From Escherichia coli (GTDB lineage: Bacteria; Pseudomonadota; Gammaproteobacteria; Enterobacterales; Enterobacteriaceae): DNA of 64,000 bases. Under the pieces are notes generated by a model. That model was not told where the DNA came from, searched no databases, and saw only the letters and a list, made by a program, of their open reading frames with translations. Both the position numbers and the translations under genes were made by a program. The stretch's first letter is position 1. Each line of letters starts with the position of its first letter. The DNA is taken from assembly GCF_048403405.1 (NCBI RefSeq), contig NZ_CP183129.1. One strand, written 5' to 3'. This document shows, one piece after another, positions 10,685-33,322 of this stretch.

Positions 10685-11368
10685 TTACTCTCTGAAGGTC
10701 TGAATTACGTCACTTATGAAACGAAAGTGAGGGAGGGCTGAAATAAACTCTTCACTGGCAGTCAGAGCATCAAGTTCAGGCTTTCTGCGGAAAGAGGTAT
10801 CCAGAACGGTTACGGCGTTAACGTCTTCCATCCGAAACACCTGTAAATTTCTGGTGCGGGTAGCAACAAGAAACCAGTTTTTGGACTGAAATATCAGACG
10901 GCGGGGAGCTACTGCTTCGTAGCTTTTACCGTTAACCAATAATGTAACGGCGCGGTAGTCGCGGATAGCTTCCGCCAGTTTCAGAAAACAGGCAGTCTGC
11001 GTGACGGGAGAAGATAATGCCCCATGCCCAATAAGACACGGCGATACGCCGGAATTGCTGGCAATCAACCGGATCAACTTGCGGTTCTGAGCCGGAATGA
11101 TTCCTGAAATTCCTGAATTACGTATAAACGCAAATGTATTGGGTAAGTGCTCCCGGCCTGTTTGGCGGATAAGTCGGTAACTTCCGCTGCGATGCTCAAG
11201 ATCCAGATGGATCAGGCGTTGCTGAAAATCCCGCTGTAGGGTGCGTTCTGAGACACCAAATTCATCAGCTAATACTTTAAGCTCCAGAGATTCACCAGCC
11301 AGTAAGCGGCTGATAATGACTGATAGCCTGACAGACAGGCGGTCATGATGATCATGCTGTGTTTTCAT
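10685..11368 (-). CDS. HTH-WYL domain transcriptional regulator (YfjR-like)
   Basis: N-terminal HTH (LKVLADEFGVSERTLQRDF) followed by a WYL-like region; start set at internal Met 11368. Confidence 0.55.
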   Translation of the reverse strand: MKTQHDHHDRLSVRLSVIISRLLAGESLELKVLADEFGVSERTLQRDFQQRLIHLDLEHRSGSYRLIRQTGREHLPNTFAFIRNSGISGIIPAQNRKLIRLIASNSGVSPCLIGHGALSSPVTQTACFLKLAEAIRDYRAVTLLVNGKSYEAVAPRRLIFQSKNWFLVATRTRNLQVFRMEDVNAVTVLDTSFRRKPELDALTASEEFISALPHFRFISDVIQTFRE

Positions 11369-15770: not shown

Positions 15771-16091
15771 GGAACTAAAACGGGTCTATTTACAGGGCCA
15801 TCAGTTAGAAAATGTGGCGTACAACGATAAACAGTTTGGTTGCATAAAAAAACGTAAGAGTTGGTTATCATTCTTTCAACGTAAGGGAATTACAGTAGCG
15901 GTAGGAAAAACTGATAGGTTATTTTACATTGAATTCAAAAAACTGTTTATTTAAGCCGTTAGCGATAAGTTTCATTGTAATTTAGCCGGAAAATGTTCCA
16001 TTGGGAAAACTGAATTGAGACTAATATTATATTAGATGAGAATATTTCTGATGTAAATATACCGAGGAATGGAGGCATCCCTCGGTATATG

Positions 16092-18167: not shown

Positions 18168-18177
18168 AACGCCTCAC

Positions 18178-20775
18178 TTAAAAGAAGTCATCCTGAAATG
18201 CCAGGTCGATCGTGATCGGGTAGCGACCATACTCTGTTGCGCTGTCCGCATTCTCCAGGATAAGAACATACTTGTTTTTACGATTGAATGCCGTCCCCAT
18301 GAGTTTCATGGTTACATCGCGGGTGCGTTTACCCATATCTTCGTTATCACTGTCGAAGCATACTGTTTCCGTGCCGGAGACGACCTGGTTGTTTTCATCG
18401 ACGATAAAGATATTCAGCGTGCGCGGCTCATTTAAATCATTCACTGCCGAAGTCTGAATAAAACCAATTTTATCAATGCTGTTAACCAGTTTGATCACCT
18501 GATCCCGCGCAACGACGGGCACGGGCTGCCGCTGGGGTTGCTTCTCAGCCGCTTTCTTTTCAAGCGCGCGAATCTTCAACACAGGAACACACACTTCCTG
18601 CAGCATGGCTCCGCCATGAACGAAACGAGCACCCCCTACGAAGTGGAAACGCTGTACTCCTTTGGGTAACAGGAATTCACTTTCATCGCTTGCGCCTGCA
18701 GTATCAGCCAGTTTGCCGTGCCAGCAAAATTCACTTTCAGGCAGTTGATGGCCTACAATAAAACGCTTATTCGCTTCAATCGTGTCTTTGGCTTTACTTT
18801 CCAGCTTCGTTTTATCCTGCTCCACCAGCGCTTGTTGTTGGAACAGGAAGCCGTGATCGGCGGTAACAAAAATTCGGCTGGCATTAAATCGGCTACGCAG
18901 GCGTGAAACCAGATCTTTTAGCTCAGTGATTGCACTTCGGCAGGCCTCAAACGTTTTATCTTCCGTTGCAGCCTTATCACCCATGGCATCTATAGTGTCG
19001 TGCCAGATATAAACTACGGAAGCGTTGCGGATTTGCTCGTTCACTTCCTGGTTATTGGCGTTCTGCAAGTCCTTTGCTTTCAGCGCTACACCATTCACCT
19101 TCGCAAGAATAGCGGCTCTTTTTTCAAACCCGGAAGTGGACATCCCATCGGCGTATACTACACCAGAATTATCAGGAAGATAGCTCAACGACTCATGAGG
19201 CAACAGTGCGGCCATGCCCAGTTGGGTATAGCTTGGGAGCACTCCGGTCTGGGAGCGCAGCTCTGCACTGAAGTGCTTCTCATAGTTGATATGCCTGCCC
19301 AGCTCTTCCGCCACTTCGTAGCGCAATGCATCCGAGATCACGACAAAAACACGTTTGACCTGCGAGGTGTCAAACTGACGTTTAACATTCTCTTTATAGA
19401 AATTGCGCTGCAGGGGTATGCCGCTAAACTGCCAGGCCTGCATACGGTTTTCCGCTTCCAGCAGTTTGTTCCAGCCGCGACTTAGTTCAGTCAGATACCA
19501 ATTGCTGTATAACTCTTCGATGAATTTATCCAGTTCATGCAGGATCATCGCCCCTTTGCTGTGCACTGGTGCAGCATATTCATTGAACAAACGATAGGTC
19601 TGATCGAAGCGATAAATTTCGTCACAATAGGCCTTCCAGAACGCACCTGTATCGGGGAAATTAAACCCGTCGGTGTAACGGTTACGCAAATTCAGCAAGC
19701 GTTCTGCCTGACGAATAGCATTCCAGATAGAAAGATACTCTGGGCGGGTTTGGCTCCAGTATTTCGCACTGCGCTCTGAAACCAACGCTTTAAACGCATC
19801 TCTGTCCAGAGTGGTGCTCTCTTCCTGCAACTGTGTCACCAGACCACGGATAATAAGTTGCTCAATAGCCTCGAAGGTTTCACATTTTGCCAGTGTATAT
19901 GGTGAGCTGTAGTTGTAGTGTTCTTTTGGCTGGAGCGTCTGCTGCAAATCCTCTGCACAGTAATCGTATTCTACTTTATAGCGACGATCGTTGCGCCACG
20001 CCCCCATAAAGGCCAGTGACGAGGCCCGACCAGCCGCGGTAGCCAGCACATTTTTACTCAACCAGTCACGATGTGCTTCATCACCCTGCGCCCAGAGATC
20101 GGTACAGAACAGTTTCAGAAGCAGATTTTCCATTGAAGGAGATTCAGACTGGTATCCCAACTCAAGGCGAAGAATTTCCCAAAGTACCTCATCCAGGCCA
20201 AGCTTCGTCAGTACGGCGAAAGTGTTCTCGAGTGCGCTATCATCTTGCTGCCGTGCTGCGACAAACTGCTGAACCAAAGCAAATAGTATTTCTTTGGTTT
20301 CGAAGGTACTGGCCCCGACCACCACCGCCAGCATTTTCTTATCGAGAGAGTTTTCCGTTTCGCGCTCGGTGACCCATCCCTTCAGGATCTGAGTTCGCTT
20401 AACGGTAAAGAAGGCTTTGCGAAGCTGAATATGTTCGCGTAAACCGAGTTGCGGGATACCCAGAGAATTCAGGGTGATCGCCGCATAATCAGCGTGGAAT
20501 TCGGTACTATAGAGGCGGATATCCAGCAACCAGTCCTGCTCGCGAGCAGGAACCTCACAGGTGAAATAGAGTAAAAATTTCTGCTCAGGCTCGTCGATTT
20601 CGAGTCGTTTTTTTGTTGCGAGCACAGAAACGCCACGCATATCCAGCAGCGTGACATTGTCGAGATCCAGCTCATTAATTGAATCAGTGAAGCGTTGTTC
20701 CGGGTCGTGCCAGAAGACGATACGGTTGTCGGTAAACTTCTGACGAAGCCCTGATTCCAGTTCTTTAAATTGCAT
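18178..20775 (-). CDS. pglZ: BREX PglZ (alkaline-phosphatase-superfamily protein)
   Basis: 865-aa ORF with PglZ-type motifs (…VTADHGF…); positioned between the methyltransferase and brxL. Confidence 0.85.
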   Translation of the reverse strand: MQFKELESGLRQKFTDNRIVFWHDPEQRFTDSINELDLDNVTLLDMRGVSVLATKKRLEIDEPEQKFLLYFTCEVPAREQDWLLDIRLYSTEFHADYAAITLNSLGIPQLGLREHIQLRKAFFTVKRTQILKGWVTERETENSLDKKMLAVVVGASTFETKEILFALVQQFVAARQQDDSALENTFAVLTKLGLDEVLWEILRLELGYQSESPSMENLLLKLFCTDLWAQGDEAHRDWLSKNVLATAAGRASSLAFMGAWRNDRRYKVEYDYCAEDLQQTLQPKEHYNYSSPYTLAKCETFEAIEQLIIRGLVTQLQEESTTLDRDAFKALVSERSAKYWSQTRPEYLSIWNAIRQAERLLNLRNRYTDGFNFPDTGAFWKAYCDEIYRFDQTYRLFNEYAAPVHSKGAMILHELDKFIEELYSNWYLTELSRGWNKLLEAENRMQAWQFSGIPLQRNFYKENVKRQFDTSQVKRVFVVISDALRYEVAEELGRHINYEKHFSAELRSQTGVLPSYTQLGMAALLPHESLSYLPDNSGVVYADGMSTSGFEKRAAILAKVNGVALKAKDLQNANNQEVNEQIRNASVVYIWHDTIDAMGDKAATEDKTFEACRSAITELKDLVSRLRSRFNASRIFVTADHGFLFQQQALVEQDKTKLESKAKDTIEANKRFIVGHQLPESEFCWHGKLADTAGASDESEFLLPKGVQRFHFVGGARFVHGGAMLQEVCVPVLKIRALEKKAAEKQPQRQPVPVVARDQVIKLVNSIDKIGFIQTSAVNDLNEPRTLNIFIVDENNQVVSGTETVCFDSDNEDMGKRTRDVTMKLMGTAFNRKNKYVLILENADSATEYGRYPITIDLAFQDDFF

Positions 20776-21344
20776 TATTGATTCTCAAACCATTCGACCA
20801 GTTCATGAGCGCTAGGGCAAGCAGGGTGTCTGGCAGAACTCTGAATATCAAAACCGTGATGCGTTACCATTCTCCTGGCAAATGCGGTTTTAGAACTTCC
20901 CGGTCCCTGTTTTCCTAGCTCGCGTGAAATTACTTTTAAACGATCCCATGGCATTTCAGTTGTAGCTTCAGGTAACTCTTCATTAAATGTGTCTACTTTA
21001 AGCCATTTTTTCATTGCCTCTGAATCGGCAAGAAACCAAGCCTCAACTGCTTTGACTGCGATAAACGAGATGTCGACATCTTGATGGGCAATTCGGGCCC
21101 GTACATCAGCAACAGATGCCGCATCTTCCAGGTCGGTCAGAATACAGATCCGTTCAGCACCTACATTTCTGAGCCTAGCAACGAAATTATCAACATACTT
21201 CGGTAACAGGTTACCACCACCTTTGGCATCAATAACGGGAGTTACCAATTCAAAATTATTCGTGCGCAGAAATGCAATGAACGCTGGTGAATTCACGATG
21301 ATTGACTCAGTATCACCTTCAACGATAAAACCTATTTTTACCAT
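20775..21344 (-). CDS. small TOPRIM-like protein (DUF4276-like) embedded in the BREX operon
   Basis: 189 aa; N-terminal IGFIVEGDTE and downstream ICILTDLED resemble TOPRIM Glu and DxD motifs; start overlaps the ATPase stop by 7 nt and its stop overlaps the pglZ start (TAATG). Confidence 0.6.
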   Translation of the reverse strand: MVKIGFIVEGDTESIIVNSPAFIAFLRTNNFELVTPVIDAKGGGNLLPKYVDNFVARLRNVGAERICILTDLEDAASVADVRARIAHQDVDISFIAVKAVEAWFLADSEAMKKWLKVDTFNEELPEATTEMPWDRLKVISRELGKQGPGSSKTAFARRMVTHHGFDIQSSARHPACPSAHELVEWFENQ

Positions 21345-22459
21345 GGCAAACCGCCATCAAACATATTCATCAGCCACGCGGTATCCAGTGGGATTTCCTT
21401 TTTATCAACCCCCGCATCTGAAGCATGCATCAGCTGAGTTTTCCCCTCTTTTTTACTAACAAACCACAGTTCGTCTGGTTCCAGATTGCGAACAATAGAT
21501 TCACTATGGGTAGTAATAACAATTGGATGATTCAAAGAGGCATTTTCACGCATCAATTGCACAAGTTCCCCAATGGCTTTTGGGTGAATACCGCGTTCAG
21601 GCTCTTCAATAATGGTCATCCCCGTTTGCTGTGCTCGACTCAAGATGGCCGTCATAATACAAAGCGTGAAGATGGTGCCGTCAGAGATAAGATGGGCAGG
21701 AAAGCGGGCACGAGTTCCCTGTTCTTTAAAGGTCAATACCGTTGAGCCATCCAATTTTTGTTTCTCGGTCGATACATTTTCCATCCCCGGAACGATGAGT
21801 TCCATCCACTCCAGTATTTGCTCTTTAAATTCGCTATTCGATTCGAGAGCAGCAAGCACAGAAGCAATGTTTCGACCATGACTGTCCAGAAATGTCGAGT
21901 CAGTTTTGGCGCTATCGGGCTCTTTAGCACGTAACGGATCGATGCGAAAAACAACAATATTGGTCAAAAAAGCGTACAGTTCACTTTTCCCCAGTAGCAT
22001 TAGTGCCGTCATATCTGACGAGTAGTTAGGGATTAAAGTCGCAGGGATTTCATCACTATCGCTCAGGCGAATCATAAGAGTATCAGGGTGCTTACGATCA
22101 ATATAAATATCTCCATCAATGACCAACTTTTCAGTGATTGTTGGTTTTTTATCCATGTTTTTGATCGTCAAGTCATAGGTAAACTGTTTTCCTCCCAGCT
22201 CAATTTGAAGGTGCAGTGAAGCCGTAGTCCGATTTTCCTTACGCAGCTTGTAGCAATGAATCTGCTGAAAACCGCCAAAATCACGGATTGCTTGTGTCGC
22301 CCCGGTTTTCACTACGGCACCAAAAAAAGCCAATGCATCGGTAATGTTACTTTTGCCCGCACCATTGGCTCCAGCAAAGGTGATAAATGGTGGGCTTTCC
22401 ACAAGGGAAAGCTCCGCGATGCTCTTGTAGCCTTTAATAATCAGGGGATGTTGATCCAT
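21338..22459 (-). CDS. ABC-type ATPase (AAA_15/AAA_21-like) embedded in the BREX operon
   Basis: 373 aa; Walker A (GANGAGKSN) near the N-terminus and C-terminal ABC-like H-loop region (IVITTHSESIV); start overlaps the pglX stop (TAATG). Confidence 0.7.
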   Translation of the reverse strand: MDQHPLIIKGYKSIAELSLVESPPFITFAGANGAGKSNITDALAFFGAVVKTGATQAIRDFGGFQQIHCYKLRKENRTTASLHLQIELGGKQFTYDLTIKNMDKKPTITEKLVIDGDIYIDRKHPDTLMIRLSDSDEIPATLIPNYSSDMTALMLLGKSELYAFLTNIVVFRIDPLRAKEPDSAKTDSTFLDSHGRNIASVLAALESNSEFKEQILEWMELIVPGMENVSTEKQKLDGSTVLTFKEQGTRARFPAHLISDGTIFTLCIMTAILSRAQQTGMTIIEEPERGIHPKAIGELVQLMRENASLNHPIVITTHSESIVRNLEPDELWFVSKKEGKTQLMHASDAGVDKKEIPLDTAWLMNMFDGGLPW

Positions 22460-25400
22460 TATGCCTCCTGTGGCGCACTGCCGGTGATCGCCTTGACATC
22501 CGCCAGCAGATCGCCAAATTTGCCGTAGTTAACCTTAACGCCGTCATCCAGATCAATAGTGATACGTCTATCAGCATAGTGACGCAAGCGATCGTCAAAA
22601 TTGCGCAGCTCGTTGAATTTTTTAGTCAACCCATCCAGCTCTTTTTTCAGGCGTGTGGTGGCAGCGCCCGATTCTGCATTTTTAAGCTGATCGTTAACAA
22701 GATCGATATTTCCCTGGTAGCGTGCCAGCAGCGGAACTACATATTCGGTACGCATACGTGACAATGTGCCTTCATTATAACGGTGCAGATACACCAGGCA
22801 CTCAAACGCCTTCTCTTTACCTGAGCTGAATAGCCAGTAAATTGGGCGCTTCTTGTACATCTTCATATGATCTTTCCAGAACTGGGTGGAAAGATAGCGA
22901 CGGATGGTATCCAGCGAAGACTCGCCTTTTTTCGGCTTGATTGCGTACAAGCAGAGGCTTTCGGCGATGAAATCGAGGTTTTCTTGTAAATGTTCTTCGC
23001 CCCAGACTGTGCGAACGAACTCTTTAACGCGGGAGGTAACATCGTCATCGAACCAGTCAGAATCCATTAATGGCAGGATACCATCTTCATCGGCAGGGAA
23101 GGTTTGGTAGGCGCCTTCATCTACTAATTCAGAAAAGCCTTTGTTACCTTCGTGGGCGTAGACCAAGCCTTCGCGATCAAGGGAATAGCGGCCCATCATG
23201 CAGCCAATAGCCAGGCTAAGTGAGTTTATAACCTGAATCGCCTTAAATTGGTTATATTCATCTTTTGAAATTGAGCTTAATGACTGGAAAACATTATTTT
23301 CCAATGTTATTTCTGCCAAGGCAAGATTGTTTTCGTTTAAAATATTGCATTTTTCATAAAATATTTTGTTATTATCACATTCTAGCTCATGTGTTTTGAT
23401 TAACTTTTGATAAAAAACTTCAGTCTGGTTTTTTAATATGTTTACTAGGCTGCCGTTTTGAAACGCATCCTGATTGAAGGAAAACTGATAACTATTTTCC
23501 TGCTGACTCCAATTTTCTTTAGCCAGAGAAATTAGTTCAGCAGTGTTCAAGGATAGGCTCTCAATCATTTTCTCATCAAAAAATGCTGGTAATTTACTTA
23601 TATCCCCCGGTTGATAATTTAATGTTGGAGAGATAGCCTTTATTAAAGAGATAATAATATCACTATTAATAAATGCTAACACAGGCAGGTAAAGGTCTTC
23701 ATTATTAACAAATAACGAAGACCCTGCATTGTCAAATAATGAGGACTCTGAGACTCTTGCAGATGTCTTGCTTGAGGAAAGAGCGTTCCATGTAATCCCT
23801 TTTTTAAATATAAAATCTAAATTATAGTTATGCGAACGTACCTTTCCTGATTTTTCATCGGTAAAATTTTGAATTTCCCGACCATCGTCGAACCAATTTA
23901 CGACATAATCAAGATTACCGTACCACTTTCTATATTCACCACCTTTCTGATAAGGGAACCATTTCAGACCGGATTTTTTAGCTTGAATACGATCAGTAAA
24001 ATCAAAACCGATATTCGCGAAATTAACTTCATGCCAAAAACGTAAAAAACGCTCATTATCCGCTGTTGCCATTCCAAGGCGTGTTGAGGCAATTTGAGAT
24101 ATTTTTTTATTATCAAATAAATTAACCTCACTTTCGCTGAGCCAATACGCAATCGGTGCACCGGGGATTTTTTGGAAGTCATCGGCAGCGGCAGTCTTTA
24201 AACGATCGTTTTTAACCGGAAATTCTTTTGGATATCCTTCATCATTGATATCGTCATTCTCAGTATAAGAGAATGCCCCTTGATAAGAAGGAATGTGAAC
24301 ATTTCTAAACACTGTTGCATTGGTACCAAAGGCAATTTTCATAACGCCATTGCCCATATGTACCATCGTCTCAATAGTGTATTTATCCAATATATTCGCA
24401 CGCATATTTTCATAGCTAGACAAAAACATCCATGATTGCATAGTCACCATTGAGTTGTACGCAGCATCTTTGAGCCAGGAAAAACCCCGCTCAATAAACA
24501 TCGCAAACAAATCTGACTTACTGTCCGGGAATTGTTTCTTAGCGAACTCTTTCAGTTCACCGTTCATCCCTTTCCCACCCATATACGGCGGGTTCGCCAC
24601 AACCGCATCGTAACGCTGCGCCAAAATCCACGCCTGCTGAATATACGGAATCAGCTCTGCTGCCGCTTCTTTCTGCGGGATATCACCCTCGACAGCCAGA
24701 CGATATAGTCCACCCAGGAATGTCTTCAGCGCCGTTTCATCTTCCTGCGGCACCTGAATCAGTGATCCCAGCGTTTTTGCACTAGTGAACAAAGCCAGAG
24801 TACGCATCAGTAGCTTATATTCCGCGCTGTCGGTATTGGCCAGTGACGTCCCTTGGGTAAACATATCTCCCATGCTGCCGCGTTGCGCCTGCTGATGAAA
24901 GTTCAGCTTGGTCCACAGTTCAGCGATATCCAGTTTACTTTCCTGCAGCGAAACGATATTCAGGCGAACGCCACGGCCCAGAATACGACGATCGTCCTGA
25001 CGGGCAAGCATCAGCATCGCAAAACCGGAAAGCTGCGCCGCACGGTCATCAATATCTAGGCCGAAAATATTGTTTTCCAGAATCAGCTGCGGAATGTCAC
25101 GGGTACGGTAGCCACGCTCTTCGTAAATGGCCTTCAGCACGTTATAGGCTTCGGTCAGGATATGCCCGGAGCCGCAGGCCGGGTCCAGCACCTTAATACT
25201 TTCTGGTTCAATGCTTGATGGGGTAATAGCCGCCAGCTGTGCCTGCACTTCCGGCGTTTGTTCCGCTGGCTCAATGTAGTACGGCATTTTGCCTTTCAGG
25301 CTGGAGTCCGGATAGGTTTGCAGCCACTGGCGGCCCACCGAGTTCTGCACCAGATACTGCACAATCCAGTTCGGAGTAAACAGCTGGGTAGCGGCAGGAA

Positions 25401-26112
25401 TATCTTCGCTCTTCACCACCTTGCCGATCACATCATCTTTTTTCTCGGAAATATAAAACTGATACAACCAGCCGATCACTTCGACCTGTTTCCAGTCTTC
25501 TTCAGGAATCGTGTCCACCAGCCCGCGCAGAATAGAGTCGGTGCGAGTCAGGTTATCCGGCAATACCAGTTCGATATCATCATTGACTGCTTCGAACAGG
25601 AAAGGCATAGCGCCGTGCAGCGCATGGCACTGTGCAAGCAATAGTTCACGGTACAGCTCTTCGTCACGATCGCCCGCCAGCTTCATCTCCACCAGGCGTG
25701 ATTTGTCCAGCCCAAGTGCATCAGCCACTTCCGGCACATGATCCAGAACCTCAAAACTCCCTTCCAGGGTCGGGTGAGACAGCATACGGAAACCGTGATC
25801 AAGATAGCCATGCAGCTCCATATAGCGAATAGCGCAAAAGCGGTTAAACCAGGTGTAAGCGATGTGCTCCACCAGCACGTCATAGCCCTGCTTTTCTGCA
25901 CGCTTGACCAGACGTTCACGGCGTGAAGCCAGTGATTTATCCAGCGAGAACTGACCATATCGCACACTGTCGCCAAGATCGGTTGCTTGCGCTATTTGCA
26001 GGTTGCCTTTTTTATCGGCGTCAATACCCAGCGTGGTCAGTTTTTGCATGACCGCATCGCGGAACTGTTTACGTGCCACCGGGGCGTATTTTTTGATATT
26101 TGACGTATTCAT
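22459..26112 (-). CDS. pglX: BREX PglX (N6-adenine DNA methyltransferase / specificity protein)
   Basis: 1217-aa ORF with methyltransferase motif I (LDPACGSGHIL) and motif IV (VVANPPYMGG); AT-rich central to C-terminal block. Confidence 0.85.
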   Translation of the reverse strand: MNTSNIKKYAPVARKQFRDAVMQKLTTLGIDADKKGNLQIAQATDLGDSVRYGQFSLDKSLASRRERLVKRAEKQGYDVLVEHIAYTWFNRFCAIRYMELHGYLDHGFRMLSHPTLEGSFEVLDHVPEVADALGLDKSRLVEMKLAGDRDEELYRELLLAQCHALHGAMPFLFEAVNDDIELVLPDNLTRTDSILRGLVDTIPEEDWKQVEVIGWLYQFYISEKKDDVIGKVVKSEDIPAATQLFTPNWIVQYLVQNSVGRQWLQTYPDSSLKGKMPYYIEPAEQTPEVQAQLAAITPSSIEPESIKVLDPACGSGHILTEAYNVLKAIYEERGYRTRDIPQLILENNIFGLDIDDRAAQLSGFAMLMLARQDDRRILGRGVRLNIVSLQESKLDIAELWTKLNFHQQAQRGSMGDMFTQGTSLANTDSAEYKLLMRTLALFTSAKTLGSLIQVPQEDETALKTFLGGLYRLAVEGDIPQKEAAAELIPYIQQAWILAQRYDAVVANPPYMGGKGMNGELKEFAKKQFPDSKSDLFAMFIERGFSWLKDAAYNSMVTMQSWMFLSSYENMRANILDKYTIETMVHMGNGVMKIAFGTNATVFRNVHIPSYQGAFSYTENDDINDEGYPKEFPVKNDRLKTAAADDFQKIPGAPIAYWLSESEVNLFDNKKISQIASTRLGMATADNERFLRFWHEVNFANIGFDFTDRIQAKKSGLKWFPYQKGGEYRKWYGNLDYVVNWFDDGREIQNFTDEKSGKVRSHNYNLDFIFKKGITWNALSSSKTSARVSESSLFDNAGSSLFVNNEDLYLPVLAFINSDIIISLIKAISPTLNYQPGDISKLPAFFDEKMIESLSLNTAELISLAKENWSQQENSYQFSFNQDAFQNGSLVNILKNQTEVFYQKLIKTHELECDNNKIFYEKCNILNENNLALAEITLENNVFQSLSSISKDEYNQFKAIQVINSLSLAIGCMMGRYSLDREGLVYAHEGNKGFSELVDEGAYQTFPADEDGILPLMDSDWFDDDVTSRVKEFVRTVWGEEHLQENLDFIAESLCLYAIKPKKGESSLDTIRRYLSTQFWKDHMKMYKKRPIYWLFSSGKEKAFECLVYLHRYNEGTLSRMRTEYVVPLLARYQGNIDLVNDQLKNAESGAATTRLKKELDGLTKKFNELRNFDDRLRHYADRRITIDLDDGVKVNYGKFGDLLADVKAITGSAPQEA

Positions 26113-26160
26113 ATGAAGTCCTGAAAAGGGCAGACAATGTCTGCCCTGAAAATGGGGAAA

Positions 26161-29100
26161 TTACTGAAGCTGTACGCGTTCACCTGCGTTAATGGCATCC
26201 ATTAGCGTTTTACGGAGTTGTTCCAGCGCTTTGTCTACCTGTTCGGCGTTATCCAGCGTTGTCACACCCGCCGCTCGTTCCATCGTTTTACGCGTGTTTA
26301 CGTAGATGGTTTTTTTCAGCTTGGGTTCAGGCTTAACTACGGGGTCGATAATCCCAGGCTGAGGAGCAGGTTTTGGATCAGACACTTTCTTACGCTGATC
26401 CTCAACCCAGCCGTTCAGCCGTTCATTCGCTTTAAATTGTAGCGCTCGAACCTCAGCCTGTTCTTCCATAATCTGTGGGATCAGGCCGTTCTGCTCCACT
26501 TTCTTACGCGATTGTTGCATCGGGTGTAAAAGCGAGTGTTGCAAGTCAGCAGGGACGTGCATCTCCTGCATGCTTTGCTTAAGTTCATTGATATGACCAT
26601 CGATCTGTAGCAGCGCATGGCTTCGATATTCTTCGACCAGACGCTGGTTGATGGTTTCAACGGTTTCAATCAGCGGGATAATCCGATGCAGTTCTCCATA
26701 AGGTCGTGCCTTGCTGTAGATCCCTTCCAGTTCCTGTAACGCCTTTTGGGCCGTTTCGTCTTTATCCAGCGCGTTACGGTTAGCTTTAAAACTGCCATTC
26801 AACGCCATACTCAAGCGCTGCCAGGTAGCGTATTGGTTTTTGTAGAAGCTAACCAAATCGTCCCAGTCTTCCGAGAAATCTTTAAGATCGTCAGCCGCTG
26901 CGGTGATTTTTTCAATGACCGCGTATTCCTCTTTCTCGTTAAGGATCCCGTTCAGCAATACCAGACCTTCTTCTATCTCTTTACGGCCAGGGTTTTGTCC
27001 ACTCTCTGCACGAGTTTTAAAAACAGTCAACTCGCTATTCCAGCGGCCAAAGAGTTCGCGAATATGAGAGACCAACGACTGTTCTTCACGCTCGTTAAAC
27101 GGCTCTCCAGCAATCTCTGCCATCAGCTGCGCAGCTTTAGTCAACTGTGCTTCATCATGGCGACGAACTTTATGCAGACGCAAATCGCTGTAACGACGTG
27201 AATTATTAAACGCGTCCCACGCCTGCTTCAGTGCGATTTCACTGCCTTGCAGAGTGAAGCTGTATTTACCGCTGCGTGCCAGCCGAGCAACCAGCAATTT
27301 GACTTCATCTTCCGGCCAGCCAAACGGGCGACGGCCAAAAGTGGTGAGAATATCCCGCAGGTAAACTGGCTTATGAGTCTCAATACTCATGCTGATCCAG
27401 TTATCCACTTCACGCATCGCCTCTGGGTTGGATTCTTCCATACCCCCGAGATCGAGCTGGGTATCATTTTCTACTGTCAACAGCGCGTGAGTTTCACGAT
27501 TTACGTCTCCGGTACTAAGACGCAGCAATTTTAGTTTAGAGAAACTGTTCTCGATAACGTAACCGCAGGCTGCATCCACGATAGCTAACGGCGAAGAGGA
27601 TTTCTTATCCAGCCGTTCGCCCAGCGCCCAGACATCAGCTTGAGCCAGCAAGCCTTCAATCTGCGCCTTAAGCGTTTTTTCACGCATACTATTTTCACGG
27701 CCTTTTTCCGCCAACAGCGTTGCCTGTTCCGGGCGCTGGCCGCTTTGCTTGCTGAGGAAAGCTTTGGTCTGAGCGTACATGGTCAGGTCTTGCCAGGTAC
27801 GAGCCTCATCAGGCAGGCAAATTAAGATGCAGTCTTTACTGTCCGTCATCAGCAGACTATTAGAATGCGCACCCTTATAGCTCTCGTAGTTCGAGTCCAG
27901 TGGCGTGAGCACTTTAACCACCAGATCGTTAAGATTCGCACCATCCAGCGGATGTCCGTTACAAAAACGACTGATATCAAAATCCTGCTTATTGGCCGGA
28001 TAGCGATATCTTTTGTTTTTCAGGATCTCTTCGAAAATGATGGTTGAGAGTTGCTTATTGATGGTGGTGAATTCCACGTCAATATTGCGGATTTCGTTTT
28101 CAATCTCTTTTTCTTCGTTAGTGAGAAAAACAAATTTGTCATCAATACGCGAGATCAGCATCTCAGCCTGCAGACGATTAAGGCTGGCTTCAATCTGTCG
28201 ACGGAGTTCCACTTTATCAGTATCAATACGCTCAATAGAGAGCGTGACGAGATTGTCGAGAGTACTTTTCAGCACATCGACGTAGCGGATCAGGAACAGT
28301 GTCTTTAGTAGTTTGCCGTCAAATTCAGTCAGTGACGGAGACTGGCAGGCCTGAATAATAGTGCGGCTAACTGCAGGTTCCAGGAAGCTTTCAATCGCTG
28401 AATAGAAGCGCCAGAACGGGACCAGACTATCCAGACCATCTGCGGAGATTTGCACAGCAGCCGACTGGAAGGCATCTAGCAAAGAGCGCTCCCCCATTGC
28501 CAGCTGCTTACCTGCGGCCCCTTTAGTACGGATTGATTCAAAGACTTTTTGCAGGATCTGGTAATGCCACGGTACAAACGGATAGTTATCCACGAACTCG
28601 CGGCTGTTTGTATAGGCTCGCAGAGTAGCGGTCGTTGTCGTGTCAAACGCCAACTGGTTACGCAGAATATCGCCTTTTTCCTGCCAGATAGCTTCCAGCG
28701 CCGGTATTGCCGCATCGGTTTTTACCAGCAGACGTTTCTGGATAACTTCTGAAGTATTCGAGCTGGAGAGTTGTAAGCGCGTTGAGAAACGTCCCTGAAT
28801 CTTGGAGAAGTCCTGACCATCACGACTGCTCATACCGCCAATAGCAGCATTAATGTCAGCCTGGGAGGTAACTATCACCCATGCCCGCCCACCACAAATA
28901 ACGCCCAAGTTTTCGGTGATAGTTTGCAGCTTGAGCATCATCTGAGCATCTTTACCAATGAACTGACCAACTTCATCGACCATAAACAGGATATTGCGAT
29001 TACCATGGCTGTCGAGCCACTCTTTCACCCACGTACAGAAATTTTTGATATCCAATGGGAAGTTCTTATCAAGTTGCTCGATCCATTGACGAGAAGACTC

Positions 29101-29775
29101 TTCACTCTGGCCTGTAGCAATACTCAGTGCCTGAGCCATCTGATCGTTTATCATCAGATAAACATCACGTTCGTCTTCCCAGCGAGACCCTGTAATGTCC
29201 GCGAAGGCTGCCCTAAAGGTATCAAATTGTCCACGCTTATCGAGCTCACGTTCCAGATGTGCAATATGTGGGAAGTCGCCACAATAACCAGCTAGTTCGT
29301 TAAAGACTTTCAGAAAGACTTTGAGTATGGCATCAACGCCATCTTCAACATTCGCACGTGAGTCAATATTGAATAATATGACATCGGTCGGATGTTGTAC
29401 CGATTTCCGAATATCAGCCAATAGCAGTGCATCATCAATTTTCTCTTCAAAGAAGGAAAGTGCATTACGAGTGACACCATTATGGCTTACTTCGCGGTTC
29501 GCCAGTAGATAGGATAAGATCTTAATGAAGTGTGATTTACCCGAACCAAAGAAGCCTGAAACCCAGACGCCTATTTTGTCAGCAAGCTGTAATCTGCCAG
29601 GGCCAGTAGCAGGGGCATATACTTCAAAGAACTGACGCAGGTGACCATCCAGCTCTCTGGTAATGACATACTCATCCAGTTCTATCCAGGCGCTTTCGTC
29701 GTCGGTCTGCTCGGCTTTAACCACGCCGTTAATATTACGTTTTAGCTGTTTCTCAAAAATTTGTTCAATATTCAT
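26161..29775 (-). CDS. brxC: BREX BrxC/PglY (large P-loop ATPase)
   Basis: 1204-aa ORF with N-terminal Walker A (GFFGSGKSHFIKIL); position between brxB and pglX. Confidence 0.85.
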   Translation of the reverse strand: MNIEQIFEKQLKRNINGVVKAEQTDDESAWIELDEYVITRELDGHLRQFFEVYAPATGPGRLQLADKIGVWVSGFFGSGKSHFIKILSYLLANREVSHNGVTRNALSFFEEKIDDALLLADIRKSVQHPTDVILFNIDSRANVEDGVDAILKVFLKVFNELAGYCGDFPHIAHLERELDKRGQFDTFRAAFADITGSRWEDERDVYLMINDQMAQALSIATGQSEESSRQWIEQLDKNFPLDIKNFCTWVKEWLDSHGNRNILFMVDEVGQFIGKDAQMMLKLQTITENLGVICGGRAWVIVTSQADINAAIGGMSSRDGQDFSKIQGRFSTRLQLSSSNTSEVIQKRLLVKTDAAIPALEAIWQEKGDILRNQLAFDTTTTATLRAYTNSREFVDNYPFVPWHYQILQKVFESIRTKGAAGKQLAMGERSLLDAFQSAAVQISADGLDSLVPFWRFYSAIESFLEPAVSRTIIQACQSPSLTEFDGKLLKTLFLIRYVDVLKSTLDNLVTLSIERIDTDKVELRRQIEASLNRLQAEMLISRIDDKFVFLTNEEKEIENEIRNIDVEFTTINKQLSTIIFEEILKNKRYRYPANKQDFDISRFCNGHPLDGANLNDLVVKVLTPLDSNYESYKGAHSNSLLMTDSKDCILICLPDEARTWQDLTMYAQTKAFLSKQSGQRPEQATLLAEKGRENSMREKTLKAQIEGLLAQADVWALGERLDKKSSSPLAIVDAACGYVIENSFSKLKLLRLSTGDVNRETHALLTVENDTQLDLGGMEESNPEAMREVDNWISMSIETHKPVYLRDILTTFGRRPFGWPEDEVKLLVARLARSGKYSFTLQGSEIALKQAWDAFNNSRRYSDLRLHKVRRHDEAQLTKAAQLMAEIAGEPFNEREEQSLVSHIRELFGRWNSELTVFKTRAESGQNPGRKEIEEGLVLLNGILNEKEEYAVIEKITAAADDLKDFSEDWDDLVSFYKNQYATWQRLSMALNGSFKANRNALDKDETAQKALQELEGIYSKARPYGELHRIIPLIETVETINQRLVEEYRSHALLQIDGHINELKQSMQEMHVPADLQHSLLHPMQQSRKKVEQNGLIPQIMEEQAEVRALQFKANERLNGWVEDQRKKVSDPKPAPQPGIIDPVVKPEPKLKKTIYVNTRKTMERAAGVTTLDNAEQVDKALEQLRKTLMDAINAGERVQLQ

Positions 29776-29787
29776 TGCTGTCGTCTT

Positions 29788-30390
29788 TTAACGAGGAGTC
29801 AAAGTCGCCGCCGGTCTGGTTTCTGGTACCAGTCTGAAGGCGCGGTAATAGTTACGAGAATTAATGCCAGCGAGTGGAGAAAGATCGTATCCGCTATAGG
29901 TGCCTGGATAGAACATCAGCAATGGTGTAAATCCCATCACGTCCTGAAGTGCGCTCATTAGCTCATGACCACGAACCAACGGCCAGGCGTTACCAAGTCC
30001 CGTCAGAATGACAAATTGCTGCGCAGGAAGATCGACCGTGCGTGCAATATATTCCGCGATTTTTTTCTGGCTTAGCGGGGCAGCCAGATGCTTTTTCAGT
30101 GTCTCAAGGCCAAGCTCAGGCTCTCGTTGGCAGATACGTTCAAAGAGCTTACGTTCTTCCAACATATCGATGATAATCTGGAAGATATTTAGCGTTTTAT
30201 AGGTGTACTTTTTATCCAGTTTTTTGAATAAAAAGTGCAAGTACTCGCGGACCTGAAGCTCTTGTTTTGCCGGATAATCAAAGATCCAGAAGCCAATCTC
30301 ATTGCCGGAACCTTGGTTTTTCAAAAAACGGTCGTCGCCGATACGTTCTTCTAACTGTTTTAATCGGTATTCAAGGATCGGGTCATTCAT
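29788..30390 (-). CDS. brxB: BREX BrxB (DUF1788-like)
   Basis: 200-aa ORF between brxA and brxC; 4-nt overlap with brxA. Confidence 0.7.
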   Translation of the reverse strand: MNDPILEYRLKQLEERIGDDRFLKNQGSGNEIGFWIFDYPAKQELQVREYLHFLFKKLDKKYTYKTLNIFQIIIDMLEERKLFERICQREPELGLETLKKHLAAPLSQKKIAEYIARTVDLPAQQFVILTGLGNAWPLVRGHELMSALQDVMGFTPLLMFYPGTYSGYDLSPLAGINSRNYYRAFRLVPETRPAATLTPR

Positions 30391-31007
30391 GCGTTACCCT
30401 CCAGAATAGGGAGCAGTTCGGCTTTGTTTAAACGATGCAAGGCCGCTGCAACAACTGGTAGCAGGAAAACGTTTTGTAAATTGCGGCGGCGTGGGCTATC
30501 CAGGTAACCAGCTTCTGCGAGAGCCTTAATAAGATTGTTACCCATCTTTTGGATCGATGAATCAGAAAAAGCTGCCAGTTCCGGGTGTAAACGGAGATTC
30601 TCATCCACAAACTCACTCCAACAATTTATACCAAGCTTTTCTTTAAACTGCTGACGAGCTGGATTTACAACTTCAGCAATAAACGTCGCAACAACTGGAG
30701 ACTGGATCATCAACGCAACCAACAACATTTGCAGACGCTCGCTTTCACTGCCATCAGCAATCAGTTGCCAGCACTCCCGATCCAGGGTCATCAATCGCAG
30801 CCTTAAGGTTCGGGCATAACGATTTGCCGTACTCGTGGAGGACGCCTGAAGAATATTTTCATTGATTATTTGCTGCTGCCAGGTTGTTTCATCTGGTTCA
30901 GAGAGCAACAGCTCAGCAATGGTTCGGCTCTCACGAACCATCAACGAACCACCCAGCAGATCGCCAATCCAGCGTTTGTCATTTTTTGTCATGGTATTTA
31001 TCATCAA
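30387..31007 (-). CDS. brxA: BREX BrxA (DUF1819-like)
   Basis: 206-aa first gene of the operon, preceded by ~570 bp of non-coding DNA. Confidence 0.7.
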   Translation of the reverse strand: MMINTMTKNDKRWIGDLLGGSLMVRESRTIAELLLSEPDETTWQQQIINENILQASSTSTANRYARTLRLRLMTLDRECWQLIADGSESERLQMLLVALMIQSPVVATFIAEVVNPARQQFKEKLGINCWSEFVDENLRLHPELAAFSDSSIQKMGNNLIKALAEAGYLDSPRRRNLQNVFLLPVVAAALHRLNKAELLPILEGNA

Positions 31008-31574
31008 AAATCCGGAATGCTGCTCGCAAAAATCAAGTAATGATTGTAATCGGCATGCAAGATAGATGCTATGACTATGGTCAGCTCAATATACGTTCAT
31101 AGTACGAGTACAGTTATAAAAATGGGAGGGTTAACCAGTTCCGGTATCTTTTCCTACACAAACATATACTTGAGATCGTGCCCGCATCGTGGACAATGTT
31201 TAACCATGATGATTTTATATCAACGAAATCAATAGTTTTATTTGAGTTACGGGACGGGGAATGGACAGCAATACTCAAGAATTTACTTCATGCTGGCGAA
31301 TACCTTAGCTGATGCCGAGTCTGGAAAATGTAATGATGTGATGGACGACCTTTCCTGAAGCAGACAGTGCCATACTTTTACTGTCTGCGTTTGCTAAGGG
31401 AGTAAATCACATCACTACAAATAGTCCTTCTGTGTCAGCTTTTACGCCGAATGCTAAGCTCCTCTTTAGGGGGCGATCTTATGATTCCGGTGGCATTAGC
31501 TGGAATAAAAAAGAATTTATTGAGCCGGTTGCTCTTCCCCCCAGGGGAAGAGCATGTGTGTGAATAGCGTTCTG

Positions 31575-32920
31575 TCACCTTCTCAGCGGATTGTTAACCT
31601 TTGCATATTCAAACGGACTGATACCCTTCTCTCTGTTCGCATCCAGAAAATCCGCCCACCACTGTAACATCAGCTTGCGCTCATCCAGATGTTCCGCTTT
31701 ATGGATATACGCCGCCCTCACCGAATTGCGTTCCATATGGCTCATCTGCCTTTCCACCGCATCCTTCGACCATAGCCCTGACTCAATTAACGAACTACAG
31801 ACCATTGTGCGGAAGCCGTGGCCGCAAACTTCAACCTTAGTGTCATAACCCATCACCCGTAGTGCACTGTTTACCGTGTTCTCGCTCATGGGCTTACGCG
31901 GATCATGATCGCCAATAAAAATCAGCTCATGTTCGCCACAGAACTGTTTTATCTGCTTCAGGGTCGCTAGCGCCTGCTTTGAAAGCGGCACTAGATGAGG
32001 TGTACGCATCTTTGATCCTCGCTGAGAATGTTTCACGCCGGGAATAGGCTCTCGCTCAGGCGGGATGGTCCACATCGACGTGTCGAAATCTATCTCCGAC
32101 CAGCGAGCAAAACGCAGCTCACTGGATCGAATAAAGATAAGCAGAGTAAGTTCAGTTGCCCAGCGGGTTAGTGGCCTGCCGGTGTATTCATCGATTTTCT
32201 GGAGTAATTCCGGGATACGCTTTAACTCCAGCGCCGGACGATGCTGTCGATTACTGGAAGCAACCGCCCCCGCCATCTCTTGCGCCGGATTGTAATCAAT
32301 TAACCCGCTTTGCACTGCATAACGCATGATGGCCGTAGTGCGCTGTTGAAGGCGGGAAGCCACTTCAAGACGTCCGGACTTCTCCACGGCTTTAATAGGA
32401 ATTAACAGATCGCGGGTGCCTAGTTCAGCAATGTTGCGAGTACCAATTGCCGGGAAGATATTCTCCTCCAAGCTCTTTTTAGACGATTAGCATGATATTC
32501 CGACCATTTTTGGTTGGTCACGAGCCACTATTTGGCAACCTTCTCGAAAGTAATAATCTCTTTCGCCTGCTCTTCTTTCACAGCACGTTTATGCTCACGA
32601 GGATCGATACCAGCAGCTACCAGCTTTCTGGCCTCTTCCCTTTTCTTCCGCGCATCCGCCAGCGAAACATCCGGGTAAACGCCGAACGCCATCAAATGTT
32701 GTTTACCACCAGAACGGAAACGAAATCACCAATACTTTGAACCGCCAGGTTTTACAAGTAAAGACATGCCGTCGCCGTCAACAAGTGAATACTCTTTCTC
32801 CTCTGACTTCACAGAACGAACTTTAGTATCCGTTAGGGCAATAATGGTCTTCCTTCCATTGGTATCTCGTGAGTATACAAGCAATATCGAATCGGCAAAT
32901 ATGCTTATTAGTATACTCAC
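31575..32920 (-). pseudogene. P4-type tyrosine integrase (intB-like), disrupted
   Basis: N-terminal arm-binding fragment (ORF 32726..32920, …LTDTKVRSVK…GGSKYW) ends at an in-frame TGA; catalytic remainder (ORF 31575..32471) is in a different frame. Confidence 0.7.
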
Positions 32921-33007
32921 AAGCCTGTTGATGTGGGTTGAGTCAGGTTGACTTCAGTTGAGGAGAAAAGCTGGAAAAGCCTTGCGTGGTGCGGATTTCA
33001 GGCATAA

Positions 33008-33030
33008 AAAAAGACCTCAGTTGAGGTCTA
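33008..33030 (-). terminator. rho-independent terminator of leuX
   Basis: Hairpin agacctca-ac-tgaggtct followed by a T-run on the minus strand, just past the tRNA 3' end. Confidence 0.5.
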
Positions 33031-33042
33031 TTTACATACTTT

Positions 33043-33127
33043 TGGTGCCGAAGGCCGGACTCGAACCGGCACGTATTTCTACGGTTGATTTTGAATCAAC
33101 TGCGTCTACCGATTTCGCCACTTCGGC
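33043..33127 (-). tRNA. leuX: tRNA-Leu (anticodon CAA)
   Basis: Reverse complement reads GCCGAAGTGGCGAAATCGGTAGACGCAGTTGATTCAAAATCAACCG…GGTTCGAGTCCGGCCTTCGGCACCA, with CAA in the anticodon loop and a 3' CCA. Confidence 0.9.
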
Positions 33128-33322
33128 ACTGAAGAGGTATGCGGAAAACGTTGTGGATTATACCTGTCGCACGCCACCATGCAAGCGCCAGCTTGCTCGC
33201 ACCTCGCTAAGTGCTGAAATTTTCAGCATTGCATACAGCGATGTGTAACCTTTGTCACACTCCAGGCACCCCGCCCTGCCATGCTCTACACTTCCCAGAC
33301 AACACCAGAGAAGGACCAAAAA

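What the first reader, a model, noticed from the sequence alone, without database searches (positions are those of the whole stretch)
31008..31574. Long non-coding leader upstream of brxA, with no brxR
About 570 bp without a convincing ORF separates the integrase remnant from brxA. Some BREX loci carry a WYL regulator (brxR) here; this one does not. The region presumably contains the BREX promoter and could hold regulatory RNA structure or operator sites.
Basis: inference. Interest (0 to 1): 0.3.

Follow-up and report, generated by a model that had tools for sequence, protein, structure and literature searches.

The report
Patchwork spacer upstream of BREX operon
The roughly 580 bases in front of this phage-defence (BREX) operon are mostly leftovers of neighbouring mobile DNA, including the stump of a deleted Mokosh defence gene, and only the last ~90 bases next to brxA look like the operon's own control region, so the finding is ordinary.

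Summary
brxA (30387-30992, minus strand) is separated from a frameshifted P4-type integrase (ends at 31575) by 567-582 bp. No gene is called there in 27 near-identical E. coli copies, and no brxR lies upstream.

The "long leader" interpretation is only partly supported. Read on the minus strand, the spacer has four parts of different origin:
- **31574-31421:** the integrase's own conserved 3' flank, with a hairpin.
- **31419-31329:** a 91-nt long-hairpin element, also found in unrelated islands and plasmids.
- **31328-31262:** the first 66 nt, frameshifted, of a divergent Mokosh type II gene (mkoC/yjhR-like), with its conserved plus-strand promoter. The gene is intact in related loci.
- **31261-30993:** the ancestral mkoC-brxA intergenic region.

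Related BREX loci in other contexts share only the last 91-98 bp before brxA, and the E. coli HS lineage shares only about 61 bp. That core holds an invariant TACAAT (31048-31043), which I take as the -10 box. It implies a 5' UTR of about 45 nt with no stable RNA fold and no Rfam match. Small ORFs show no purifying selection. Published TSS and RNA-seq data for Salmonella BREX, which also has no upstream brxR, report a promoter upstream of brxA. The result is ordinary.

The parts
30387..30992 (-). brxA (DUF1819), first gene of the BREX-1 operon. The annotated ATG is at 30992. An in-frame TTG at 31007 and an ATG at 31004 are possible alternative starts.
   Evidence: ORF list. RefSeq annotation of identical loci. 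PADLOC BrxA model, E = 1.6e-94, aligned from residue 3.
30993..31085 (-). brxA-proximal module that travels with the BREX cassette, taken as its promoter plus 5' UTR. This is the minimum upstream DNA kept in all loci of this BREX lineage.
   Evidence: Homology with Yersinia ruckeri and seven metagenome loci in other contexts stops at -91 to -98. The E. coli HS lineage shares -61 to -1.
31043..31071 (-). Candidate sigma-70 promoter of brxA: -35-like TAGCAT (31071-31066; alternatively ATAGCA with an 18-bp spacer), 17-bp spacer, -10 TACAAT (31048-31043). Predicted TSS at about 31038-31034, giving a 5' UTR of about 42-46 nt.
   Evidence: PWM scan score 7.8, which is no better than background. ATTACAATCA is invariant in 25 distinct upstream sequences from two lineages and was not part of the search pattern. 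The placement is an inference.
31014..31036 (-). Conserved block TTGATTTTTGCGAGCAGCATTCC inside the predicted 5' UTR. It is read in different frames in the two lineages, so it is non-coding.
   Evidence: The wider block 31054-31013 is 34/42 identical to E. coli HS, against 69% for coding DNA and 41% further upstream. However, 16% of coding 42-nt windows do as well.
31086..31261 (.). The rest of the ancestral 268-bp divergent intergenic region between brxA and mkoC. It includes the conserved plus-strand mkoC promoter.
   Evidence: Collinear at about 93% with L021 and L053, where both genes are intact.
31170..31197 (+). Promoter of the deleted mkoC gene: TTGAGA, 16-bp spacer, GACAAT. It points away from brxA.
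   Evidence: Found by both scans. The TTG and the block GCAnCGTGGACAAT are kept in three diverged mkoC/yjhR upstream regions.
31262..31328 (+). 5' stub (66 nt) of a Mokosh type II gene (mkoC / yjhR-like helicase-PLD). It has a 1-nt deletion after 31298 (frameshift), and homology ends at 31328.
   Evidence: Alignment to the intact 1171-aa genes of L021 and L053. That protein matches PADLOC MkoC at E = 0, 1546 bits. 71-84% nucleotide matches to yjhR/AAA genes in other E. coli.
31329..31419 (.). 91-nt imperfect palindrome (long hairpin element). On the minus strand it is followed by UUUU. It may block read-through, but it is not specific to BREX.
   Evidence: Inverted repeat I1. Folding energy -37.7 and -40.6 kcal/mol on the two strands, z = -6.5 and -7.3. 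Relatives in 655 of 5426 E. coli genomes, in unrelated contexts. The hairpin is kept, with 4 compensatory pairs in 5 sequences.
31421..31574 (-). Conserved 3' flank of the P4-type integrase gene. It includes an 11-bp-stem hairpin (31530-31554), followed about 20 nt later by a T-run.
   Evidence: 85-88% identical downstream of integrases at other tRNA genes in more than 1600 E. coli genomes. Hairpin conserved in the alignment. Folding energy -20.2 kcal/mol, z = -5.0. Inverted repeat I5.
31575..32843 (-). P4-type tyrosine integrase pseudogene next to tRNA-Leu (leuX, about 33044-33128).
   Evidence: Broken ORFs. RefSeq note 'frameshifted; internal stop'. The gene is intact (422 aa) on plasmid copies. 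tRNA match.

Best explanation
The spacer is a patchwork left by turnover in a defence island, not a dedicated BREX leader.

**Shown by homology.** Going from the integrase towards brxA, the spacer contains:
- the integrase's own conserved 3' flank with a hairpin;
- a 91-nt long-hairpin element that also occurs in unrelated islands and plasmids;
- the frameshifted first 66 nt of a Mokosh type II gene (mkoC/yjhR-like) that once sat divergently next to brxA, with its conserved promoter;
- the ancestral 268-bp mkoC-brxA intergenic region.

A deletion or recombination removed mkoC and fused these pieces. That roughly doubled the usual 190-290 bp gap upstream of brxA.

**Inferred.** BREX is transcribed from its own compact promoter inside the last ~93 bp. 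The -10 box is TACAAT at 31048-31043, with a weak -35. The start is near 31036, giving an unstructured ~45-nt 5' UTR that contains a conserved 23-nt block. With no BrxR, expression is probably constitutive. The upstream hairpins may limit read-through from the integrase. The orphan mkoC promoter may still fire away from brxA into the hairpin element.
For: **Mosaic origin**
- The integrase flank matches integrase-downstream DNA at other tRNA loci.
- The hairpin element has relatives in other contexts, and its pairing is maintained.
- The mkoC stub and the whole 268-bp intergenic region are collinear with L021 and L053, where an intact 1171-aa MkoC (PADLOC E = 0) faces brxA.

**Compact BREX control region**
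- Independent homology breakpoints fall at -91 to -98 (seven loci), -128, -156 and -336. For the HS lineage the breakpoint is at -61.
- ATTACAATCA is invariant in 25 distinct sequences.
- More distant brxA lineages also carry a clear -10 box (TATGAT or TATTAT) about 40-45 nt before the ATG.
- Gaps upstream of brxA are 186-726 bp across loci, most often 227-293 bp.

**Experimental support from relatives**
- dRNA-seq found a promoter upstream of brxA that drives the Salmonella D23580 island, which is constitutively expressed (PMC11341690).
- Cappable-seq found a primary TSS upstream of brxA in LT2 (PMC9009780).
- In LT2, RNA-seq gives brxA about 2000 TPM against about 30 TPM for the gene upstream.

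**No coding or RNA-family signal**
- Rfam finds only the tRNA.
- The predicted UTR folds no better than shuffles.
- The small ORFs show 7-9 nonsynonymous against 0-4 synonymous codon changes. brxA shows 8 against 32 at the same divergence.
Against: - No transcript data exist for this lineage.
- The TACAAT promoter scores no better than background in a consensus scan, and its -35 is poor.
- The exact TSS of the Salmonella homologue could not be placed on the sequence.
- The conserved block is only modestly more conserved than coding DNA: 34/42 identical, and 16% of coding windows match or exceed that.
- The motif search required the block itself, so its invariance across the metagenome loci is partly by construction.
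- Neither hairpin passes the intrinsic-terminator scan.
Confidence: 0.7

Rival explanations
1. The whole ~580 nt is a real long 5' leader. It would be transcribed from a promoter near the integrase flank or by read-through from the integrase. The 91-nt hairpin would act as an attenuator, processing site or stability element controlling BREX.
For: - Two very stable hairpins lie in the spacer (z = -5 to -7).
- The long hairpin is followed by UUUU on the minus strand.
- No strong consensus promoter lies close to brxA.
Against: - The hairpins and their flanks have separate origins. They occur next to unrelated genes.
- They are absent from related BREX loci, which share only 91-336 bp upstream of brxA.
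- Rfam finds nothing.
- In Salmonella, brxA has its own TSS and a roughly 60-fold step in transcript level over the gene upstream.
Confidence: 0.08
2. The conserved block in front of brxA (31050-31014) is an operator. In the absence of BrxR it would be bound by a regulator such as BrxA itself (autoregulation) or a host factor. BREX would then be regulated rather than constitutive.
For: - The block is kept between lineages with 69% coding identity, and identity drops to 41% just upstream of it.
- It is non-coding, since the frame differs between lineages.
- BrxA binds dsDNA (PMC9240713), and a regulatory role has been suggested for it (PMC12839542).
Against: - The block has no dyad symmetry.
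- Its conservation is not exceptional.
- It may simply be the -10 box, the start site and the early transcribed or translation-initiation region.
- BrxA binding was shown only on bulk lambda DNA.
Confidence: 0.12
3. A small protein is encoded in the spacer, from one of the 38-54-aa ORFs.
For: ORFs of 54 aa on each strand (31071-31235 plus strand, 31114-31278 minus strand) stay open in L021 and L053.
Against: - Codon changes are mostly nonsynonymous: 8-9 nonsynonymous against 2-4 synonymous. brxA shows 8 against 32 at the same divergence.
- No Pfam match reaches the curated cut-off.
- PGAP never calls these ORFs in 27 genomes.
- The region is absent from other BREX loci.
Confidence: 0.03
4. The orphan mkoC promoter still fires and makes a short plus-strand RNA: the 5' UTR, the 66-nt stub and the hairpin element. 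This RNA might have acquired a function, for example as an antisense to the integrase 3' end.
For: - The conserved promoter TTGAGA-16-GACAAT is intact.
- The hairpin element lies immediately downstream.
Against: - This is purely inferential.
- No U-tract follows the hairpin on the plus strand.
- The arrangement is young: all copies are 98% identical or more.
Confidence: 0.05

Closest known systems
brxA promoter region of the Salmonella Typhimurium LT2/D23580 (StySA) and E. coli HS type I BREX loci, none of which carries an upstream brxR
   Same: - Enterobacterial BREX-1 with no upstream brxR, sitting in a tRNA-linked island.
- A two-gene insert lies between pglX and pglZ, as in Salmonella.
- About 61 bp upstream of brxA are shared, including TACAAT and the TTTTTGCGAGCwGCATTCC block.
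- In Salmonella a TSS was mapped upstream of brxA and expression is constitutive.
   Different: - brxA here is only about 67-69% identical at the nucleotide level.
- DNA upstream of -61 is unrelated.
- HS sits at thrW, and in the LT2 gene table the brxL end, not the brxA end, adjoins yjgB.
- Here the neighbour is an integrase flank plus a Mokosh stub.
BrxR (HTH-WYL-WCX) regulated BREX islands: E. fergusonii pEFER and Acinetobacter
   Same: Both are type I BREX operons starting with brxA. Both have an upstream region that carries the controlling promoter.
   Different: - No WYL gene lies upstream here.
- No 10-11-bp inverted repeat with a 5-bp spacer lies near the promoter.
- The only WYL protein in the island is 227 aa, distant from brxA, and matches only generic WYL models.
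Mokosh type II (MkoC; E. coli YjhR helicase-PLD fusion)
   Same: The stub 31262-31328 and its upstream 90 bp align with the 5' ends of intact mkoC/yjhR genes. YjhR is described as a fused Mokosh (10.1101/2022.12.12.520048).
   Different: Only 22 codons remain and they are frameshifted. No functional Mokosh is present at this site.
Defence-gene hotspots next to P4-type integrases in satellites and islands (from my own recall; not tested here)
   Same: A P4-type integrase at a tRNA gene is followed, after a conserved flank, by changing defence cargo. Examples seen here are BREX, Mokosh, an AAA+HNH pair, and RM.
   Different: No P4 satellite core genes were found next to BREX in this window. The link is a lead, not a test.

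Membership tests
Type I BREX operon | [quoted passage not shown] | tested here: met
   RefSeq annotation of the identical locus. PADLOC BrxA model, E = 1.6e-94. ORFs in the window.
BrxR-regulated BREX locus | An HTH-WYL (BrxR) gene immediately upstream of brxA and co-oriented with it | tested here: not met
   The integrase is followed by 582 bp without a gene, then brxA.
BrxR-regulated BREX locus | R-box: 10-11-bp inverted repeats separated by about 5 bp, next to the promoter (PMC9122601) | tested here: not met
   The repeat search finds no inverted repeat within 30993-31118. Only AATCA/TGATT (5 bp) is visible, and it is not kept in HS.
Structured cis-regulatory RNA leader (riboswitch, attenuator, known sRNA) | A match to a curated RNA family, or a fold more stable than shuffled sequence within the transcribed leader | tested here: not met
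   Rfam at E up to 1 finds only the tRNA. The predicted UTR gives z = +0.5 and the 101-nt proximal region gives z = -0.1. The stable hairpins lie in modules not shared with other BREX loci.
Sigma-70 promoter | -35 and -10 hexamers at 16-18 bp spacing, scoring above background | tested here: inconclusive
   TAGCAT-17-TACAAT scores 7.8, which is background level. The simple scan finds no minus-strand site in the spacer. The support is conservation only.
Sigma-54 promoter (considered and rejected) | GG at -24 and GC at -12 (TGGCAC-N5-TTGCW) | tested here: not met
   By eye on the alignment: the window has TAGCAT-N5-TTGCA (lacks GG) and HS has TGGCAT-N5-CCGGT (lacks GC). Only a subgroup (L037, L045, L056, L065) has both. 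No conserved upstream activator site exists beyond -93.
Intrinsic terminator | GC-rich stem-loop directly followed by a U-tract | tested here: not met
   The scan finds 0 sites in 30800-31800. The integrase hairpin has its T-run about 20 nt away. The long hairpin is followed by only UUUU.
Mokosh type II gene (mkoC) | A full-length helicase + PLD protein of about 1170 aa | tested here: not met
   Only 66 nt remain, with a frameshift. The intact homologue in L021 is 1171 aa. The feature is therefore filed as a remnant.

The most novel reading that the evidence does not exclude
In the many enterobacterial BREX-1 loci that have no upstream BrxR, the conserved non-coding block just upstream of brxA (ATTACAATCA...TTTTTGCGAGCwGCATTCC, window 31050-31014) could be an operator or mRNA element. 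Through it the DNA-binding protein BrxA, or a host factor, would control BREX expression. That would give BrxA a regulatory role.
Probability: 0.1. Interest if true: 0.5.

Novelty: new member of a known kind. Interest (0 to 1): 0.15.

Why it matters
The main value is for annotation and experimental design.
- Anyone cloning or engineering this BREX lineage probably needs only about 100 bp upstream of brxA, not 570 bp.
- The long gap should not be read as evidence of a special regulatory leader.
- It is a clear small example of how defence islands turn over. A Mokosh gene that sat back-to-back with BREX was deleted, leaving its promoter and 22 codons.
- Repeated recombination breakpoints at -91 to -156 act as a natural deletion series that marks the edge of the BREX cassette.
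- The conserved block in the short 5' UTR is a modest, testable lead on how BREX loci with no upstream BrxR are controlled.

Tried and rejected
- **Rfam** scan of 30700-33300 at E up to 1 found only tRNA-Leu.
- **Consensus scans.** The promoter/terminator scan and my own PWM scan found no convincing minus-strand promoter or terminator. The best-looking site (TTGTCA-17-TATCAT, 30976-31004) is on the plus strand over the brxA start, and its -35 is not kept in Y. ruckeri.
- **Viral-contig scan** for the conserved block gave two chance hits inside coding DNA.
- **Genome-collection scan** with BrxA gave only 4 loci. Salmonella LT2 was not among them.
- **Placing the published TSS.** The D23580 TSS (4773879) could not be put on the sequence. 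The supplements held contain no coordinates for brxA.
- **Leaderless promoter** (TTGCGA-18-GATGAT) was rejected because it is not kept in HS (by eye).
- **Sigma-54 reading** was rejected because neither half-site is consistently present (by eye).
- **IHF-like site** at AATCATTACTTGA was rejected because it matches poorly and is not conserved.
- **N-terminal extension of BrxA** as the reading of the conserved block was rejected, because the two lineages read it in different frames.
- **Small ORFs** were rejected on their substitution pattern.
- **"More conserved than coding."** I first thought the block was far more conserved than coding DNA. A sliding-window control shows it is not exceptional.

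Full report
**Setting.** The BREX genes lie on the minus strand: brxC 26161-29775, brxB 29788-30390 and brxA 30387-30992. The brxA start is the RefSeq ATG; an in-frame TTG lies at 31007. Upstream in the direction of transcription are a P4-type integrase broken into several ORFs (31575 to about 32843), tRNA-Leu (leuX), and then ahr, idnK and idnD. This is therefore an E. coli leuX island. The same 567 bp occur at 98% identity or more in 27 of 5426 complete E. coli genomes. In all, 30 records match (22 chromosomal, 8 on plasmids), and no feature is annotated under any match. On the plasmids the integrase is intact. The operon is brxA-brxB-brxC-pglX-(AAA ATPase + small protein)-pglZ-brxL, the same layout as the Salmonella StySA/D23580 BREX.

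**Check of the observation.** The gap is real: 567 bp from the TTG, or 582 bp from the annotated ATG. It holds only 38-54-aa ORFs. None has a Pfam match reaching the curated cut-off. No WYL/BrxR gene lies between the integrase and brxA. G+C is 39-46%, against 47-52% in the flanks.

**What the spacer is made of.** BLAST against E. coli genomes and plasmids splits it into pieces with different relatives.

1. **31574-31421.** This piece is 85-88% identical to DNA just downstream of P4-type integrases at other tRNA genes, in more than 1600 genomes. It includes a conserved 11-bp-stem hairpin at 31530-31554 (-20.2 kcal/mol, z = -5.0), followed about 20 nt later by a T-run. It is the integrase gene's own 3' flank.
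2. **31419-31329.** This is a 91-nt imperfect palindrome. It folds at -37.7 and -40.6 kcal/mol on the two strands (z = -6.5 and -7.3). Relatives occur once per genome in 655 E. coli genomes, in unrelated places:
   - between an AraC-family regulator and an autotransporter;
   - between an integrase fragment and an AAA+HNH gene pair;
   - on an IncF plasmid near sopAB.

   The pairing is kept, with four compensatory pairs among five copies.
3. **31328-31262 (plus strand).** This is the first 66 nt of a gene that is intact in two related metagenome loci, L021 and L053. There a 1171-aa protein faces brxA across 268 bp. That protein matches PADLOC MkoC (Mokosh type II) at E = 0, and it has helicase and PLD domains. 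E. coli YjhR is the described fused Mokosh. In the window the stub has a 1-nt deletion after 31298, and homology stops at 31328.
4. **31261-30993.** This is the ancestral mkoC-brxA intergenic region, about 93% identical to L021 and L053. Its mkoC side carries a plus-strand promoter, TTGAGA-16-GACAAT (31170-31197). Both scans found it. Its TTG and the block GCAnCGTGGACAAT are conserved in three diverged mkoC/yjhR upstream regions.

**What belongs to BREX.** Related brxA genes in other contexts work as a natural deletion series.
- Yersinia ruckeri (BrxA 89% identical) and six metagenome loci share homology with the window only from -91 to -98.
- Other loci break at -128, -156 and -336.
- The E. 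coli HS lineage (brxA about 67-69% identical at the nucleotide level) shares only -61 to -1.

Within the shared core, ATTACAATCA is invariant in 25 distinct sequences and was not part of the search pattern. It is followed by TTGwTTTTTGCGAGCwGCATTCC. The two lineages read that block in different frames, so it is not coding. More distant brxA lineages (Aeromonas, an Enterobacteriaceae MAG) have an unrelated upstream sequence, but they also have a clear -10 box (TATGAT or TATTAT) about 40-45 nt before the ATG. Across loci the gap to the nearest upstream ORF of 100 aa or more is 186-726 bp, most often 227-293 bp. The gap here is long because a neighbouring gene decayed.

**Mechanism.** I infer that brxA is transcribed from TAGCAT-17-TACAAT (31071-31043), starting near 31036. 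That gives a 5' UTR of about 45 nt. This UTR does not fold better than shuffled sequence (z = +0.5) and matches no Rfam family.

The consensus score of this promoter is at background level. The support therefore comes from conservation and from experiments on relatives:
- a dRNA-seq promoter upstream of brxA that drives the constitutively expressed Salmonella D23580 island (PMC11341690);
- a Cappable-seq primary TSS upstream of brxA in LT2 (PMC9009780);
- RNA-seq in LT2, with brxA at about 2000 TPM against about 30 TPM for the gene upstream.

E. coli HS and Salmonella BREX work on plasmids when cloned with their upstream sequences, 508 bp in the Salmonella case.

The conserved block is 34/42 identical between lineages. 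Coding DNA is 69% identical, and DNA just upstream of the block is 41% identical. However, 16% of coding 42-nt windows do as well, so the conservation is solid but not striking.

The two upstream hairpins may reduce read-through from the integrase. Neither meets the intrinsic-terminator pattern.

**Rivals.**
- A true long structured leader is unlikely, because the structured parts are shared with unrelated loci and are missing from related BREX loci.
- A small protein is unlikely. The ORFs show 7-9 nonsynonymous against 0-4 synonymous codon changes, while brxA shows 8 against 32 at the same divergence.
- An operator role for the conserved block cannot be excluded. BrxA binds dsDNA, and a regulatory role has been suggested for it. 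There is no dyad symmetry and no direct evidence.
- The orphan mkoC promoter might still make a short plus-strand RNA. This is untested.

**Comparison and verdict.** Enterobacterial BREX-1 with no upstream BrxR and with a promoter just upstream of brxA is already described for Salmonella and E. coli HS. BrxR loci differ by having the WYL gene and R-box repeats, both absent here. This window adds a less-studied brxA lineage, a defined cassette boundary, and a Mokosh stub that documents island turnover. Interest is low.

Noticed in passing
window 20775-22459 (minus strand): A two-gene insert lies between pglX and pglZ: a 373-aa AAA ATPase and a 189-aa protein. The best PADLOC matches are HEC-01A (E = 1e-181) and HEC-01B (E = 5e-100), with AriA much weaker (6e-26). 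The pair sits where the pair called PARIS sits in Salmonella StySA/D23580 BREX.
   Followed up: partly
window 10685-11368 (minus strand): An HTH-WYL protein (227 aa) lies about 4.7 kb beyond brxL, next to a frameshifted GTPase gene in the CP4-like part of the island. It gives only generic WYL hits and no NCBIfam name. It is not in the BrxR position, but cross-regulation of BREX was not tested.
   Followed up: partly
window 30976-31004 (plus strand): The best sigma-70-like site in the area (TTGTCA-17-TATCAT, 10 of 12 matches) overlaps the brxA start codon and points antisense into the spacer. Its -35 is changed in Yersinia ruckeri, so it is probably a chance match.
   Followed up: partly
window 31329-31419; L066 2501-2592; L067 2501-2563; L068 2501-2584; L004 3001-3093: The 91-nt long hairpin belongs to an unannotated family present once per genome in 655 of 5426 E. 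coli genomes, in islands and on IncF plasmids. The other copies share a left flank (TATCGATACCAACAA...) that the window lacks. Its function is unknown: terminator, recombination site or RNA.
   Followed up: partly
window about 16000-33130; L002 (plasmid C of strain S30): The integrase + spacer + BREX block occurs at leuX with a frameshifted integrase, and on 8 E. coli plasmids (11 in PLSDB) with an intact integrase. This suggests recent movement of the block as a unit.
   Followed up: partly
L034, L040, L042, L059, L043, L046 (metagenome contigs): Several HS-type brxA genes are cut short after about codon 58-67 (...TAKRY...) and continue into unrelated sequence. This may be a recurrent insertion or rearrangement site within brxA.
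   Followed up: no
window 30993-31010: This brxA lineage has no obvious Shine-Dalgarno sequence before the annotated ATG (…GATGATAAATACCATG) and has an extra in-frame ATG/TTG 12-15 nt upstream. The HS lineage has GAGGG at the usual distance.
   Followed up: no
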